From: Octopus vulgaris
Lineage: Eukaryota
Direction of reading: 5' to 3'
DNA: 64,000 nucleotides
Assembly: GCA_951406725.2 (NCBI GenBank)
Contig: OX597819.1
Location: forward strand, 48,670,001-48,734,000
The notes under the pieces are model-generated. The model was not told the DNA's origin. It made no database searches and saw only the letters and a list, made by a program, of their open reading frames with translations. Of this stretch, positions 1,153-50,184 are shown piece by piece. The position numbers and the translations under genes were made by a program. Position 1 is the first letter of the stretch. Each line of letters begins with the position of its first letter.

Positions 1153-1674
1153 CCTCATCCGACGACAGGCACGTATGCCTACCCCCCTTTGCTTGCGAAG
1201 ACCTGTTGGGGCAAGTGAAATCGGAATCGAAATTGAACCAATCCTATGACTGGCACCCGGCAGATGCCAGGACCCCTGGACTGGAGATACGTAAAAAGCA
1301 CTATCCGAATCGTGGCCGATGCCAGCGCCGCCTCGACTGGCTTCGTGTCGGTGGCACGTAAAAAGCACCATCCGAATTGTGGCCGAAGCCAGTGCCGCCT
1401 CGACTGGCTTCCGTGCAGGTGGCACGTAAAATGCACCAATCCGCCCGTGGCCGATGCCAGCCTCACCTGGCACCAGTGCAGGTGGCATGTAAAAAGCACC
1501 CACTACACTCATGGAGTGGTTGGCGTTAGGAAGGGCATCCAGCTGTAGAAACATTGCCAGATAAGACCGGAGCCTGGTGCAGCCTTCTGGCTTCCCAGAT
1601 CCCCGGTCAACCGTCCAACCCATGCTAGCATGGAGAACGGATGTTAAACAATGATGATGATGATGATGATGATG
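1153..1674 (+). mobile_element. RTE 3' UTR with internal 63-68 bp tandem units and (GAT)n tail
   Basis: GTAAAAAGCAC-type motif at 1291, 1358, 1426 and 1489, then GGCGTTAGGAAGGGCATCCAGC...GATGATGAT. CpG-rich, so probably young. Confidence 0.75.
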
Positions 1675-1682
1675 ATATATAT

Positions 1683-1852
1683 AGGCGCAGGAGTGGCTGT
1701 GTGGTAAGTAGCTTGCTAACCGACCACATGATTCCAGGTTCAGTCCCACTGCGTGGCATCTTGGGCAAGTGTCTTCTGCTATAGCCCCGGGCCGACCAAT
1801 GCCTTGTGAGTGGATTTGGTAGACGGAAACTGAAAAACCCTGTCGTATATAT

Positions 1853-1892
<40 letters not shown>

Positions 1893-2100
1893 GTTTGTGT
1901 GTCTGTGTTTATCCCCCTACCATTGCATGACAACGGATGCTGGTGTGTTTACGTCCCCGTCACTTAGCAGTTTGGCAAAAGAGACCGATAGAATAAGTAC
2001 TGGGCTTACAAAGAATAAGTCCTGGGGTCGATTTGCTCGACTAAAGGCGGTGTTCCAGCATGGCCACAGTCAAATGACTGAAACAAGTAAAAGAGTAAAA
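1683..2100 (+). mobile_element. Full-length tRNA-derived CORE-like SINE (family A)
   Basis: A-box-like GTGGCTGTGTGG, B-box-like GGTTCAGTCCC, CORE-like CTTGGGCAAGT, internal (TA/TG)n, A-rich end. More than 15 related copies in the window. Confidence 0.85.
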
Positions 2101-2478
2101 GAGATATATATATATTCTGTTAGTTGTTTTAGTCATTAGACTGCAGCAAAGCTGGAGCACGGCCTTGAAGGTTTTAGTCAATCAAATTGATCTCACTACT
2201 TATTTTATTTTCAAGTCTGGTACTTATTCTATTGATATCTTTTTGCCAAATGTGAAAGTTTACAGGGCTGTAAGCAAACGAACACTGCTTGTCAAACACT
2301 GTTCAGGGACAAACACAAAAACATGTATAATACATACATACATACATACACACATACATACATACATACATGCATGCATGCATGCATGCATACATACATA
2401 CATACATACATACATACATACATACATACATACATGCATGCATACATACATGCATGCATGCATGCATACATGTATGCA

Positions 2479-2515
<37 letters not shown>

Positions 2516-2654
2516 ATTAAATAAGTATTATATGATGATAATAATATAGTGGCGAGCAAGTGACACATTTACAAGTAAAATATAAACTAAATTCAAGTGG
2601 TATTTCAATACCCATTTCAATTTGAATTTAGTATATATATATATATATATATAC

Positions 2655-2830
2655 AGGCCAAATTTACAGGAAACAACAAGGAGGTGTATTAGATTGACAC
2701 TTAAGAAGAATAGAAAAGTCTTTGATGTCTCAAGCCTAGGCTCTTCCACAGAAAGGGTGTAGAGGAAACAATAGTGAGATATCTAAAAGAAAACGGAGAG
2801 AGAGAAAAAAATGTGAAGGGATTAATGATT
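2655..2830 (-). mobile_element. Penelope-like terminal-repeat remnant with degenerate hammerhead motif
   Basis: Homologous to 63765-63935. Minus strand reads CTTT CTGTGGA A GAGC CTAG GCTT GAGA CATC AAAG. Confidence 0.5.
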
Positions 2831-2834
2831 AAAA

Positions 2835-2882
<48 letters not shown>

Positions 2883-3131
2883 GATGGGCTTCTTTCAGTT
2901 TCTGTCTACCAAATCCACTCACAAGGCTTTGGATGACCCAAGGTTATGGTAGAAGGCACTTGCCCAAGGTGTCACACAATGGGACTGAACCTGGAATCAT
3001 GTGGTTGGGAAGCACACTTCTTATCACCCCACCCACACTTGTACATATTTCTCTCTCTTTCTTGCCCTCTCCCACCCTCTCTCTCTCACACAATATATAT
3101 ATATAAATATTGCTAAATTTGTCTTTGGACT

Positions 3132-3189
3132 AGTCTGATGAGTCATCCATAAGGCTATAACCTTCATGGATGCAAAACCATTGGTCACT
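3132..3189 (+). ncRNA. Degenerate type I hammerhead ribozyme motif
   Basis: AGT-CTGATGA-[GTCATCCAT AAGG ctataa CCTT c ATGGATGC]-AAA(for GAA)-ACCA T TGGT-C-ACT. This gives the core, stem II, palindromic stem III, a GUC site and a 3-bp stem I. Confidence 0.55.
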
Positions 3190-3213
3190 CTATGACCTGA
3201 CATTAACTTTATT

Positions 3214-3266
<53 letters not shown>

Positions 3267-3269
<3 letters not shown>

Positions 3270-3433
3270 TGTGGCTGTGTGGTAAGAAGCTTGCTTCCCA
3301 ATCACATGGTTCTGGGTTTAGTCCCACTGCATGACACTTTGGGTAAGTGTCTTCTAGTATAGCCTCAGGTCGATCAAAGCCTTGTGAGTGGACTTGGTAG
3401 ATGGAAACTGAAAGAAGCTCGTATATATATATG

Positions 3434-3466
<33 letters not shown>

Positions 3467-3668
3467 ATATTTGTGTCTGTTTTTGTCCCCCTACATTCGT
3501 TTGATGTCCGATGTTGGTGTGTTCACATCCCTGTAACTTAGCTGTTCAGGAAAAGAGCCCTATAGATTATGTACTAGGCTTACAAAGAATAAGTCCTTGG
3601 GTTGATTTGTTCGACTAAAGGTGGTGCTCCAGTATGGCCGCAGTCAAATGACTGAAACAAGAAAAAGA
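3267..3668 (+). mobile_element. CORE-like SINE family A, full length
   Basis: Colinear with 1683-2100. Confidence 0.85.
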
Positions 3669-3697
3669 ATACACGCACACACACATATATGTATATA

Positions 3698-3886
3698 TCA
3701 TCATCATCATCATCACCATCGTTTAACGTCCGTTTTCCATGCTAGCATGGGTTGGATGGTTCGACCGGGGATCTGGGAAGCCAGAAGGCTGCACCAGGCT
3801 CCAGTCTTATCTGGCCATGTTTCTACAGCTGGATGCCCTTCCTAACGCCAACCACTCCGTGAGTGTAGTGGGTGCTTTTTACGTGC
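3698..3886 (-). mobile_element. RTE 3' tail copy 1, left flank of the H2A fragment
   Basis: (CAT)n plus about 160 bp of the tail family, ending abruptly at TTTTTACGTGC. Confidence 0.8.
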
Positions 3887-4028
3887 TGGCAGCATTTCCT
3901 GCCAATTCCAACACCTCAGCAGCCAAATATTCCATCACAGCAGCCAAGTAGACTGGGGCTCCGGCACCAACACGTTGAGCATAGTTTCCCTTACGGAGAA
4001 GACGATGGATACGACCGACGGGGAACTG
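3886..4028 (-). pseudogene. H2A: Internal histone H2A fragment (47 codons), retro-captured
   Basis: Translates to [47 protein letters not shown], the canonical H2A histone fold. No start codon, N-tail or C-terminus, and no stops or frameshifts. Confidence 0.95.
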
Positions 4029-4186
4029 TCCGTTTTCCATGCTAGCATGGGTTGGACGGTTCGACTGGGGAATTGGGAAGCCAGAAGGCTGCACCAGGCT
4101 CCAGTCTTATCTGGCAATGTTTCTACAGCTGGATGCCCTTCCTAACACCAACCACTCCGTGAGTGTAGTGGGTGCTTTTTACATGC

Positions 4187-4189
<3 letters not shown>
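4028..4189 (-). mobile_element. RTE 3' tail copy 2, right flank of the H2A fragment
   Basis: Direct repeat of 3728-3886 with several substitutions. It lacks its own (CAT)n tail. Confidence 0.8.
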
Positions 4190-4258
<69 letters not shown>

Positions 4259-21048: not shown

Positions 21049-23503
21049 TGTTATGGCAGGAGAATGGACTAGCTGAACTTGTATAGGTAGCAGTGTGTTT
21101 GACTGAAAGTGAGAGATGAGAAATTGCAGAAAGTCGAAAGGTGTCATTTGTGAGTCTGTGGAGTGGCAGGAAATTATCGAGTTGTTATAGTTTGTTGAGA
21201 GTTGTTTTGGCTTGGTTACAGTTGTTGGCAGAGTATTTGGGAAGATACTAAATGGAGACAGTTGGTGTCTACTTTGTCCTGTGGTACAATGTATCACACT
21301 GCATTGGTGCATGACGCTAAGGTGACATATACAGAAACCACGTTATAAGTGGTGACATGTGATTTGAAGCTTACATTGATCATTAACAATTTTTTATGAT
21401 ATAAAATATTTGTTAATTATGGAAGACATATTACAGTTGCAAAAGCAACAGCAACAGTGGCTGCTACAACAACTACAACAACTACAAAACAATCAGTTGC
21501 TGGAACTAATATTGAAGTTGGGAAACACTGCAAGTTTGTTTTTGCCAGACAGCGTAGCGAATGCTATAACAGAATTTAGTTATAGCTCAGAAGAAGGTAT
21601 AACTTTTTTCAGTGTACTTCAGAAGATACGAAGAAATCTTCAAGGAAGAATGCAAGTGTTGGACATGATGAAAAAGTGAGACTACTTTTATGGAAACTAG
21701 GTCCTTTAGAGCATGAAAAATACTGCAATTTTATCTTGTCTAAAAAAAACAAGTGAAATTAGTTTTGAGGAAACAATTGAGTTGCTATCCTAAATGTTCA
21801 GCGACAAGAGTTCCCTGTTCAACACTCGCTGGGAATGTTTGAATTTAGTAAAAAATGAGGACAAAGATTTTGTCAGTTATGCTGGAATTGTAAATAAAAT
21901 GTGCAAAAAATTTAAGCTGAAGGAATTATCTCCAGATGTATTTAAATGCCTCATCTTTGTGGCATTTATTGATACCGATAAATGGAGCAAAATGAGGAAA
22001 CCTACATTAAAGAAAACACCGAAAAGTGTGCGAGGCATCACAGGTGAAAGATTACACTTCTTAGGCAAAATGGTAAGTGACCTTACATTTTGTGGTAAAA
22101 CCTGTAAAGCAAAAGTGTTTGTGTTAAAAAATGCAACTAACTTGTTCATTACTGACTGGATGTAGTTGCTTGATTTATGGGATCTCCCCATAAATCTGTT
22201 CTGTAAAAACATAAATAATTGTTCCTCCAGTAAGAATAAAACAGATGAATTGAAGAAAAAATTTAAAAAGTGCTTTTCCTGAAGCGTTGTTGGATGAATT
22301 AGATTTATGTACTAAAACTGAGATGTGTTTCCAAATTAAGGAACATGCAATACCAGTGTTCAAACCAAAAAGAATGGTATCTTTTGCTGCAATAAAACAT
22401 GTCGATGGAGAATTAGACAGATTAGAAGAAATTGGAGTCATCCAAAAAGTAGAACATGCAAAATGGGCAATGGTGTGTATTAAAAAAACGAATAACAAAA
22501 TCAGGGTGTGTGCTGATTTTTCCACTGGCTTGAATGAATGTCTGAAAATGTGTCATTACCTGCTACCTACTCCGGAGGATATTTTTGCAAAGTTAAACAG
22601 GGGCAAGATATTTTTGAAACTGGATCTCTCCGATGCATTCCTACAAATTAGAGTAGACGAGGGATGTTCAAAATACTTAACAGTGAATACACATAAAAGA
22701 CTATATAAATATAACAAATTACCATTTGGTTTAAATTTCACATCTGCAATTATTCAACAGGTTATGAATGCAATGTTAACCGACTGTGAATTTGCAATTC
22801 CATACCTGGATAATATATTAATTAAAAGTGAATCTTGTGATCAGCATGTTGAGCATGTAAAATGTGTTTTTTTGAAAAATAAGAGATTACTGTTTCACAC
22901 TGAGAGAAGAAAGATATGAATTTTTCTTACCTAAAATTAAGTATTTAGGACAAATTATCGACAGGAATGGATGATGACCAGACCCCTCCAACTAATATAA
23001 TGACCTTACAAGCTTTTCTAGGTCTAGCGAATTATCAAAATTATATATACCGAAAATGCATGAATTGAGAACTCCACTAAATAATTTGCTAAAAAAGGAT
23101 GTAAAATGGAATTGGTCAAATAATTGTCAAAAGGTATTTGATGATATTAAAGAAATGTTAGTATCAGATTTGTTGCTGATTCATTTCAATCCTGCAGTGG
23201 AGATTGCTGTAGCTTCTGACACTTCAGAATATGGCATAAGAGCAGTAATGCTACACAAATACAAAGATGGTAATATGAAGATAGTGGTTCACGGCTCATG
23301 TTCTCTGATAGTAGCAGTGAGAAACTATAGTCAAACAGGGAAAGAAGCTCTACCGATCATTTTTGCCATGAAGAAATTTCACAGATTTTGCATGGTAGAA
23401 GTTTTCAGCTACAGATTAATCGCTGACCATTATTATCAATTTTGGGGTTGAAGAAAGGAATTCCTACCCATACTAAAGTGACATATACAGAAACCATGTT
23501 ATA
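21049..23503 (+). mobile_element. Degenerate Ty3/Gypsy LTR retrotransposon (K02A2.6-like), integrase deleted
   Basis: LTR TGTTATG..CGTTATA (21049-21347) and PBS-like AGTGGTGAC. The last ~30 bp of the LTR recur at 23473-23503. Gag (SLFNTRWECLNL), partial protease, RT and RNase H relics. Confidence 0.9.
22287..23470 (+). pseudogene. Gypsy reverse transcriptase / RNase H relic
   Basis: KIRVCADFSTGLN, LDLSDAFLQI, LPFGL, YLDNIL (YxDD>YLDN), VASDTSEYGIRAV, NYSQTGKEALPIIFAMKKFH. Frameshifted. Confidence 0.9.
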
Positions 23504-48503: not shown

Positions 48504-50184
48504 CAGGGTGTTCAATCAGTCTCTCCGCAGCAAGTATTTTATTGCAGAATAAATATTTATAAAATGGTATAAGACTACAAAAGAATATATTGAACTTTAC
48601 AAGATTTAAAAAAAACTTTATAAGAGGTGTTGAAAGTGTCGTCCTTAATTTTCACTACGTAAGTTGACTCTTCTACACATGTTTTGAAATACATCTTGGA
48701 GAATCTGACATGGTATGGACCATGTGAAGGTTATGATTTCTCCCTTTTTTTTTAGCTCATTAATGTTTTTCAGGCGATTCTTGTACACTGATCCTTTACT
48801 TGCTCCCCAGAAAAAAAAGTCTGGCGGTGTTAAATCAGGTGATCTTGGTGGCCAAAGTCCCTTTGAAATAATCTGTTCACTGAAAAACACTTGATGTTGT
48901 GCTATGTTGATGTGCAAAGTATGTGCTGTAGCTCCATCTTGCTGAAAGTATGCATTATTAATTTCACTTTCAATGAGTTGGCCTACAAATGGATAGACAA
49001 TATTTGAGCAATATCTCTCAGTGTTGATGGTGTCTTCAAAAAATATCAGTCCCACAATATCCATACTCCAGCTTTTTCAGGATGCAGAGGCTGCTCATGC
49101 ATTGCATGTGGATTCTTAGTGCTCCATAACCTTGTGTTTTGTGAATTTATGTGTCCTGACAGATGAAACCAAGCCTCATCAGTGTAAAAACACCCATCCA
49201 GCACTTCTATGCCTTTTTTGGCAACAAAGTTTTGGAACCAATGACAATAATGAAACCTTTTAGTATGATCTGTAGTCTTCAATTCTTGAATGGCCAGCAC
49301 TTTGTATGGAAAGAAATTTAATTTCTGTTTTACTGCTGTGTGAGCACTTCCTAGGCTGATTTCCACTTCCTGTGACAATTTGTGTAAGGACTTTGATGGG
49401 CTTGCCGACAGTTTATCAGAAATATTGGAGAGTTTCGGCATCCGGAGGTTGGCAACAAGTTTTTATATAGGCACAGGAGTGGCTGTGTGGTAAGTAGCTT
49501 GCTTACCAACCACATAGTTCCGGGTTCAGTCCCACTGTGTGGCATCTTGGGCAAGTGTCTTCTGCTATAGCCTCGGGCCAACCAATGCCTTGTGAGTGGA
49601 TTTGGTAGACGGAAACTGAAAGAAGCCTGTCGTATATATGTATATATATATATATATGTATGTGTGTGTATATGTTTGTGTGTCTGTGTTTGTCCCCCCA
49701 ACATCGCTTGACAACTGATGCTGGTGTGTTTACGTCCCCATCACTTAGTGGTTCGGCAAAAGAGACCGATATAATAAGTACTGGGCGTACAAAGAATAAG
49801 TCCCGGGGTCGATTTGCTCAACTAAAGGCGGTGCTCCAGCATGGCCGCAGTCAAATGACTGAAACAAGTAAAAAGAGAAAAAAAGAGAGAGTGTGTTTCT
49901 AACTTTTCTTATCAAATCCCACACAGTGTCATGATGTGGGAACAACAGTATTTGGAAAAGTTTCACTGAACTTCTGTTTCATAGCATCTGTGTATTTGTT
50001 TCCAGCTCGAAATAGCCGTTCAACTAAAAACGTATGTTCTTCAATGGTTAGCGTGTCGACACGCTGAAAGGTACACAACGACTGAGGAACAATGGCTGAC
50101 ACCCAGCCACCAATGCAGTGATAGCCAAGTTGCGCATGCGCAGGATGAAAAATTTCACTGTGGAGAGACTTTTTGAACACCCTG
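48504..50184 (-). mobile_element. Tc1/mariner transposon (rosa/maT-like DDD transposase), broken and SINE-interrupted
   Basis: TA|CAGGGTGTTCAA..AGTCTCTCC TIRs at both ends. Motifs TIEEHTFLVE, TDEAWFHLSG, NSQNTRLW, FQQDGATAH, WPPRSPDLTPPDFFFWG. Confidence 0.93.
49470..49890 (+). mobile_element. Young full-length SINE family A inserted in the transposase
   Basis: Very similar to 1683-2100. Splits the transposase ORF. Confidence 0.9.

What the first reader, a model, noticed from the sequence alone, without database searches (positions are those of the whole stretch)
3698..4189. Pristine histone H2A fragment captured between two co-oriented RTE 3' tails
Seen: RTE tail (with GAT tail), then 143 bp of H2A coding sequence (47 codons, no lesions), then a second RTE tail starting a few nt inside its 3' end. 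All three are sense on the minus strand, and the two tails are similar but not identical. Established: non-LTR RTs copy from the RNA 3' end and can jump templates, and canonical histone mRNAs lack poly(A). Inference: one insertion event with two template switches (RTE RNA to H2A mRNA to a second RTE RNA), capturing a non-polyadenylated S-phase mRNA. If multi-copy, this is a histone-carrying mobile chimera, and a + strand host transcript would give antisense H2A RNA.
Basis: partly seen in the sequence, partly recalled or inferred. Interest (0 to 1): 0.72.

Follow-up and report, generated by a model that had tools for sequence, protein, structure and literature searches.

The report
Histone scrap between duplicated LINE tails
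A 143-base piece of a histone H2A gene sits, once in this genome, between two near-identical copies of a jumping gene's tail, likely left by a single insertion in which the copying enzyme strayed onto a histone message and then copied its own tail a second time; it is probably a dead fossil, not a mobile element.

Summary
H2A codons 24-70 (3886-4028, minus strand) match an intact H2A gene on another contig at 142 of 143 bases and lie between two LINE 3' UTR tails; only the downstream tail keeps its (GAT)n end. Both junctions occur once in the genome, so this is not a mobile histone-carrying family.

The tails are probably one template copied twice, not two different RNAs. They share a variant carried by about 2-4% of their subfamily, and their 5' ends lie 0-3 bases apart (1.6% of random pairs). 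Best reading (0.6): one integration with a jump onto H2A mRNA and a second pass over the same tail. Against this, the tails differ at 7 of 159 sites while H2A shows at most 1 change.

Twelve other isolated histone fragments lie in this genome, none joined to a tail. Tripartite LINE chimeras and tailless histone retrocopies are published, and earlier scan notes (not checked) report similar chimeras elsewhere in this genome. No read confirmation was obtained, and no evidence was found for antisense RNA.

The parts
4028..4189 (-). Tail A: 162-nt copy of the LINE 3' UTR end, lacking the last 7 nt and the (GAT)n run; 4187-4189 (GTG) may come from the element or from the target microsatellite
   Evidence: 5 changes from the young-subfamily type plus the variant shared with B; its CCAATT variant is unique in the genome
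3886..4028 (-). H2A coding fragment, codons 24-70 plus 2 nt, both ends inside the ORF
   Evidence: 142/143 to L002
3728..3886 (-). Tail B, the part repeated in tail A (159 nt)
   Evidence: 2 changes from the young-subfamily type plus the shared variant
3697..3727 (-). 3' end of tail B: GTTAAAC plus (GAT)n run, the likely start of reverse transcription
   Evidence: same end as in the 83 sampled copies
4190..4248 (.). (TA)n tract, 5' flank and likely target site
   Evidence: other copies also sit in (TA)n tracts
3682..3696 (-). 3' flank; 14 of 15 nt match 4187-4201, a possible target-site duplication but low in complexity
   Evidence: and the sequence; the family rarely shows a duplication (4 of 83 passed, all microsatellite-like or overlapping the tail)
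3253..3671 (+). Neighbouring dispersed repeat, probably a tRNA-derived SINE (label recalled, not tested), whose 3' microsatellite holds the insertion
   Evidence: families D17, D18: second copy at 1675-2097

Best explanation
This is a single-copy sandwich of LINE tail, H2A coding fragment and LINE tail, likely made in one target-primed insertion in which the reverse transcriptase copied about 190 bases of its own RNA, likely jumped to a histone H2A mRNA fragment, and then likely copied the same tail template a second time before joining the (TA)n target. Shown: the structure, single copy number, the source gene cluster on another contig, the shared rare variant and the coincident 5' ends. Inferred: the RNA template for H2A, the single event and the re-copying. 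Two routes fit the re-copying. (a) About 0.35: the enzyme runs off a 5'-cut RNA, jumps to the H2A fragment, then jumps back onto the same RNA near its 3' end and displaces the first cDNA. (b) About 0.25: second-strand synthesis started from the target, made tail A, came off, and was end-joined to the H2A-extended cDNA. The product has no promoter or start codon of its own and is probably inert.
For: Junctions are unique. 10,486 exact intact tail ends exist. Of 13 copies that depart after GGAC, 12 still have a GAT run and only this one runs into foreign sequence (the pattern would catch only part of such cases), so the missing tail is tied to the capture. A and B are both of the young 4-C subfamily and both carry GGAAAAC: 125 copies against 2887 with GGAGAAC, 4.2%. 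Restricting to the same subtype gives about 1.7%, extrapolated from 9 of 30 and 24 of 31. Their 5' ends are 0-3 nt apart; 56 of 3403 random pairs among 83 copies are that close (1.6%). Short duplications of the element's first 10-21 nt occur at 6 of 168 5' junctions against 20 of 1658 control positions (period up to 40 nt, p=0.027; filter chosen after the first try). For an RNA template: same orientation as the tails, and 12 other isolated histone fragments, of which the 2 H4 pieces that reach the 3' UTR both stop 2 nt before the stem-loop. Template jumping, no RNase H and strand displacement are described for R2 RT (PMC13586686, passages).
Against: The tails differ at 7 of 159 sites while H2A has 1 change, or 0 if the T is a standing paralogue variant (T in 10 of 29 other loci). 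At one rate 3.1 changes are expected: P(<=1)=0.18, P(0)=0.04. A has 5 own changes against 2-3 in B plus H2A (p=0.05-0.13), which leans toward an older A. The junction-duplication excess vanishes when periods up to 350 nt are allowed (6 of 168 against 83 of 1658; first crude test 6 of 168 against 29 of 499), and no sampled duplication is longer than 21 nt. H2A has no intron, so an RNA template cannot be proven. There is no informative target-site duplication around the whole unit.
Confidence: 0.6

Rival explanations
1. A tailless H2A piece was inserted later at a break or stalled fork inside an existing tail, with a 159-nt duplication; the (TA)n edge would set one boundary. The template could be RNA or DNA.
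For: Explains the shared variant as a private mutation and the missing tail on A. Twelve tail-free histone fragments show that such inserts arise here without an element.
Against: 0 of those 12 has a flanking duplication beyond 5-nt or microsatellite matches. Young tails are a very small share of the genome, so a chance hit is unlikely (inference). It has the same mutation-count tension as the best model.
Confidence: 0.13
2. One reading: one insertion with two jumps, the last onto a different RTE RNA molecule (an unrelated copy or a sister transcript).
For: Seven differences between the tails with a near-pristine H2A. Double jumps are published (PMC2104539, section 8). A weak excess of 5' ends near this position, 6 of 83 against 2.8 expected, p=0.06, softens the coincidence.
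Against: An unrelated RNA needs both the shared variant (2-4%) and the coincident 5' end (about 2%); a sister transcript still needs the second. The apparent subfamily markers dissolved: G at site 71 is in 0 of 76 unbiased copies, and site 121 is a CpG.
Confidence: 0.12
3. Tail A was already there; a two-part H2A-tail B cDNA inserted at its 3' end and deleted its GAT run (one jump only).
For: A carries more changes than B plus H2A (5/159 against 2-3/302, p=0.05-0.13). Doucet et al. name this alternative for tripartite chimeras (PMC4476161, passage).
Against: It needs the same two coincidences as above. No other tail-less copy was found among the 13 departing copies.
Confidence: 0.1
4. Assembly chimera.
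Against: It needs two clean junctions 143 nt apart in one orientation. A, B and the H2A piece each differ from every other copy scored, which a mis-join of existing loci would not give.
Confidence: 0.05

Closest known systems
Tripartite LINE chimeric retrogenes (WEIRD/Mg-SINE/MGL in Magnaporthe; B2/U6/L1 in mouse; PMC2104539, abstract and section 8 read)
   Same: Three co-oriented pieces with the LINE 3' end last, read as two template jumps; some human cases lie in microsatellites without a clear duplication.
   Different: Here the middle piece is protein-coding mRNA and the first and last pieces are the same LINE tail, probably from one template; no clear target-site duplication.
U6-RTE, U6-RTEX and U6-L2 chimeras (PMC4476161, passages read)
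   Same: Non-L1 LINEs, RTE-like ones included, capture cellular RNA by template switching.
   Different: Those carry U6 snRNA and are two-part.
Tailless histone retropseudogenes, 51 in human (PMC5322556, passages read)
   Same: Histone mRNA pieces without poly(A) get reverse-transcribed; the 12 isolated fragments found here resemble them.
   Different: The human ones were attributed to L1 and selected with target-site duplications; the ones here show none, and only this one is joined to LINE tails.
L1 insertions holding two or three RNA-derived pieces in cultured cells (PMC11702581) and mRNA/L1 chimeras (10.1101/2025.02.02.635956); passages read
   Same: Same-orientation pieces are read as template switching or RNA ligation, with little or no microhomology.
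   Different: L1 machinery with poly(A); no LINE-mRNA-same-LINE repeat in the passages seen.
Extra nucleotides and local duplications at LINE 5' junctions (PMC4245944, abstract and part 3 of 5; PMC2718515, passages)
   Same: 5' joining by annealing can add or duplicate sequence.
   Different: Those additions are short and mostly from target DNA, not 159 nt of element plus a host mRNA piece.

Membership tests
RTE-clade LINE (source of the tails) | AP-type endonuclease and reverse transcriptase upstream of the tail, in one ORF | tested here: met
   L227: Exo_endo_phos_2 E 1.4e-5 (25.3 bits, below the 27.4 cut-off), RVT_1 E 9.3e-18 and 1.6e-9, in three consecutive frame pieces of a broken copy
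RTE-clade LINE (source of the tails) | Short tandem-repeat 3' tail, heavy 5' truncation | tested here: met
   (GAT)n tails; lengths 33-587 nt as scored in 83 copies, long copies underestimated
RTE-clade LINE (source of the tails) | RT groups with the RTE clade in a tree | not tested
   Label rests on recall, earlier scan notes and PMC9115989 (passages)
Tripartite template-switch chimera | Three directly fused, co-oriented pieces with the LINE 3' end last | tested here: met
Tripartite template-switch chimera | Three different transcripts | tested here: inconclusive
   First and third pieces look like one template, but 7 differences remain
Tripartite template-switch chimera | One target-site duplication around the whole unit | tested here: inconclusive
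   A 14/15 match inside microsatellite; the family rarely leaves one
Tripartite template-switch chimera | Empty pre-insertion allele exists | not testable with these tools
   No relatives held; public contigs skip the flanking repeats
Mobile chimeric retroposon family | Several dispersed copies of the same junctions | tested here: not met
   1 match for each junction pattern (exact match, so diverged copies could be missed); no tail abutting any of the 39 other H2A hits
Histone retropseudogene | Derived from mRNA (lies within the transcript, sense to the element) | tested here: inconclusive
   Both conditions hold, but the gene has no intron, so a DNA origin is not excluded

The most novel reading that the evidence does not exclude
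This LINE's reverse transcriptase can capture a host mRNA decay fragment and then loop back onto the very RNA it has just copied, writing a tail-X-tail sandwich in one step. Histone mRNAs that have lost their stem-loop would be regular germline substrates for it, so dispersed histone scraps would record histone mRNA decay intermediates.
Probability: 0.3. Interest if true: 0.5.

Novelty: new variant of a known kind. Interest (0 to 1): 0.3.

Why it matters
If true, it is an in vivo trace that a non-L1 LINE enzyme can copy one template twice around a captured host mRNA. That bears on how LINE 5' ends are joined and how repeat arrays in LINE UTRs may grow. It also shows that non-polyadenylated histone messages enter an invertebrate germline genome. 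As a single, promoterless 490-base relic it is unlikely to have a function, and each separate step has a published precedent.

Tried and rejected
Read support: two lays of public contigs (X1, X4, X2, X3; X1, X4, X3, X5) listed no piece bridging either junction. This is uninformative: only a fraction of pieces is shown, X1 and X5 did not cover the H2A middle at 99%, contigs drop rare branches between high-depth repeats, and histone sequence may be filtered. One X3 contig ran from the H2A piece straight into the normal gene.

Two-subfamily reading: one search seemed to place A and B in different subfamilies (T/A against G/G). The unbiased sample showed this was search bias, so it was dropped.

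Hairpin stall at the shared 5' end: a 32-nt piece folds into a hairpin (-10.4 kcal/mol, no shuffle control), but the 130-nt context folds otherwise, and the excess of ends there is weak (p=0.06). Not claimed.

A direct genome-wide search for tail-gap-tail structures could not be run. The substitute sees only copies that break at or one base after GGAC, so other sandwiches remain unsearched.

Host gene: 145 of 149 filtered ORFs in the window plus 20 kb upstream gave only RT and RNase H domains; short exons would be missed. H3 and H1 were not searched. The H2A and H2B searches scored 40 of 50 and 40 of 51 candidates; H4 scored 34 of 34.

Full report
Observation. On the minus strand the locus reads: (TA)n tract, tail A (4189-4028), H2A piece (4028-3886), tail B (3886-3728), GTTAAAC and a (GAT)n run (3727-3697), then a CA/TA microsatellite at the end of a neighbouring repeat. 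The H2A piece translates to 47 open codons and scores as Pfam Histone. The tails are a 159-nt direct repeat with 7 differences. Each junction has one shared base.

Source of the H2A piece. A search of the own genome scored 40 of 50 candidates. The best non-self hit is an intact, stem-loop-ending H2A gene in a cluster at C10:35.07 Mb, with one synonymous difference; its cluster neighbours differ at 2 sites. The differing letter is C in the 7 closest loci and T in 10 of the 29 loci overall. All 39 other hits were inspected. None has this tail abutting the H2A sequence, so the piece is not a duplication of a histone locus that already neighboured the repeat.

What the tails are. Longer copies run upstream into an ORF end. 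One near-full copy, broken by frameshifts, holds endonuclease and RT domains. This is an AP-endonuclease LINE. The RTE label, and the view that the genome is an octopus, rest on recall, on earlier scan notes and on PMC9115989 (passages); no tree was built. The family has 10,486 exact intact 3' ends.

Copy number. Each junction 20-mer matches once in 2.8 Gb. Of 13 copies that depart from the normal end after GGAC, 12 still carry a GAT run; only this one continues into foreign sequence. The chimera is single-copy, and loss of the tail on A is tied to the capture.

One template or two. A first alignment of 58 search-selected copies suggested two subfamilies. An unbiased set of 83 copies, from the first listed exact-end matches on contig C1 (80 stretches fetched), overturned this: B's G at site 71 is in 0 of 76 copies and site 121 is a CpG. 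Against the young type, A has 5 own changes and B has 2; 4 of the 7 are CpG-type, and both share GGAAAAC. Genome-wide that variant is in 125 of 3012 copies with the young 42-mer. Within the same subtype it is about 1.7%, by extrapolation from 9 of 30 and 24 of 31. The 5' ends are 3 nt apart, or identical if GTG comes from the target; 56 of 3403 random pairs are that close. Independent templates thus need two coincidences, together about 1 in 1500-3700. One template copied twice needs neither.

Results against that reading. If all three pieces have one age, H2A should show about 3.1 changes; it shows 1 or 0 (P=0.18 or 0.04). A looks older than B plus H2A at p=0.05-0.13. These are weaker than the evidence above but keep the rivals alive. 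Polishing errors in repeats could add differences; this was not tested. Short duplications of the element's start occur at 6 of 168 5' junctions. This is an excess over controls only for periods up to 40 nt and with a filter set after the first try.

RNA or DNA template. H2A has no intron, so this is inference. The piece is sense to the tails. Searches with H4 (34 of 34 scored) and H2B (40 of 51), plus the H2A list, gave 12 other isolated fragments: 3 H2A, 7 H4, 2 H2B. Other partial hits were left out as cluster genes or cluster pseudogenes (L222, L223, L242, L245, C29:20016027 not fetched) or as full divergent genes. None of the 12 is joined to a tail or has a real flanking duplication. The two H4 pieces that reach the 3' UTR (L235, L239) both end 2 nt before the stem-loop of the reference gene, as an RNA-derived copy might. 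Histone mRNA capture is therefore likely recurrent here, and this locus is the one case found with LINE tails.

Mechanism. Best reading (0.6): priming at the GAT run in a (TA)n tract, copying of B, a jump to an H2A mRNA fragment, and a second copy of the same tail, then joining to the target. R2 RT, a related enzyme, jumps templates, lacks RNase H and displaces strands (PMC13586686, passages), which makes a return to the same RNA feasible. Aborted second-strand synthesis followed by end-joining gives the same product and cannot be told apart here. Rivals: later insertion with duplication 0.13, a second RNA 0.12, pre-existing A 0.10, artefact 0.05.

Function. There is no start codon or promoter in the unit and a stop follows the H2A frame. 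No host-gene domain was found nearby, and no RNA reads were laid. The antisense idea has no support here.

Comparison. Tripartite LINE chimeras (PMC2104539, abstract and section 8), RTE-type U6 chimeras (PMC4476161, passages), mRNA/L1 chimeras (10.1101/2025.02.02.635956 and PMC11702581, passages) and tailless histone retrocopies (PMC5322556, passages) are known. LINE 5' junction additions are described in PMC4245944 (abstract, part 3 of 5) and PMC2718515 (passages). I saw no LINE-mRNA-same-LINE case in the listings of six searches or in the passages read. The library lacks most subscription papers and no supplements were read, so catalogues there may hold such cases. Earlier scan notes report U6, 7SL, tRNA, CDC5L and LSM8 captures in this genome; I did not check them.

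Verdict. A real-looking, single-copy retro-chimera, a new variant of a known kind; interest 0.3.

Noticed in passing
L235:1029-1339 (+) and L239:1035-1121 (+): Isolated H4 copies (99% and 91%), 5'-cut, without poly(A) or duplication; both end 2 nt before the histone stem-loop, a possible trace of mRNA decay intermediates.
   Followed up: partly
L236, L237, L238, L240, L241, L246, L247, L252 (=L015), L225, L226: Ten more isolated H4, H2B and H2A coding fragments of 57-308 nt outside clusters, none joined to the LINE tail.
   Followed up: partly
L138, L167, L043, L050, L065, L089, 5' junctions: The first 10-21 nt of the element, sometimes with adjacent target bases, are repeated at a period of 11-32 nt.
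   Followed up: partly
L229:6150-6800 (L065) and L041: Tandem repeats of a roughly 160-nt unit inside the LINE 3' UTR.
   Followed up: no
L227:5396-6310: Weak PHD-finger match (E 0.002, below cut-off) after the RT motifs of the LINE ORF, as in earlier scan notes.
   Followed up: no
L003 / L251 (G000:C23:44.84 Mb): H2A-H2B pair away from the main clusters, with a SINE-like insertion in the H2A ORF and another in the spacer.
   Followed up: no
L222 and L223 (G000:C29): Two cluster H2A genes cut at the same codon by the same upstream sequence, probably an insertion later duplicated.
   Followed up: no
L138 (G000:C1:5.24 Mb): Two young tails joined tail-to-tail through their GAT/ATC runs.
   Followed up: no
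window 21794-23448 (+) and 48648-49462 (-): Decayed LTR-type RT and RNase H ORFs; a transposase-like ORF pair (recalled, no Pfam hit).
   Followed up: no
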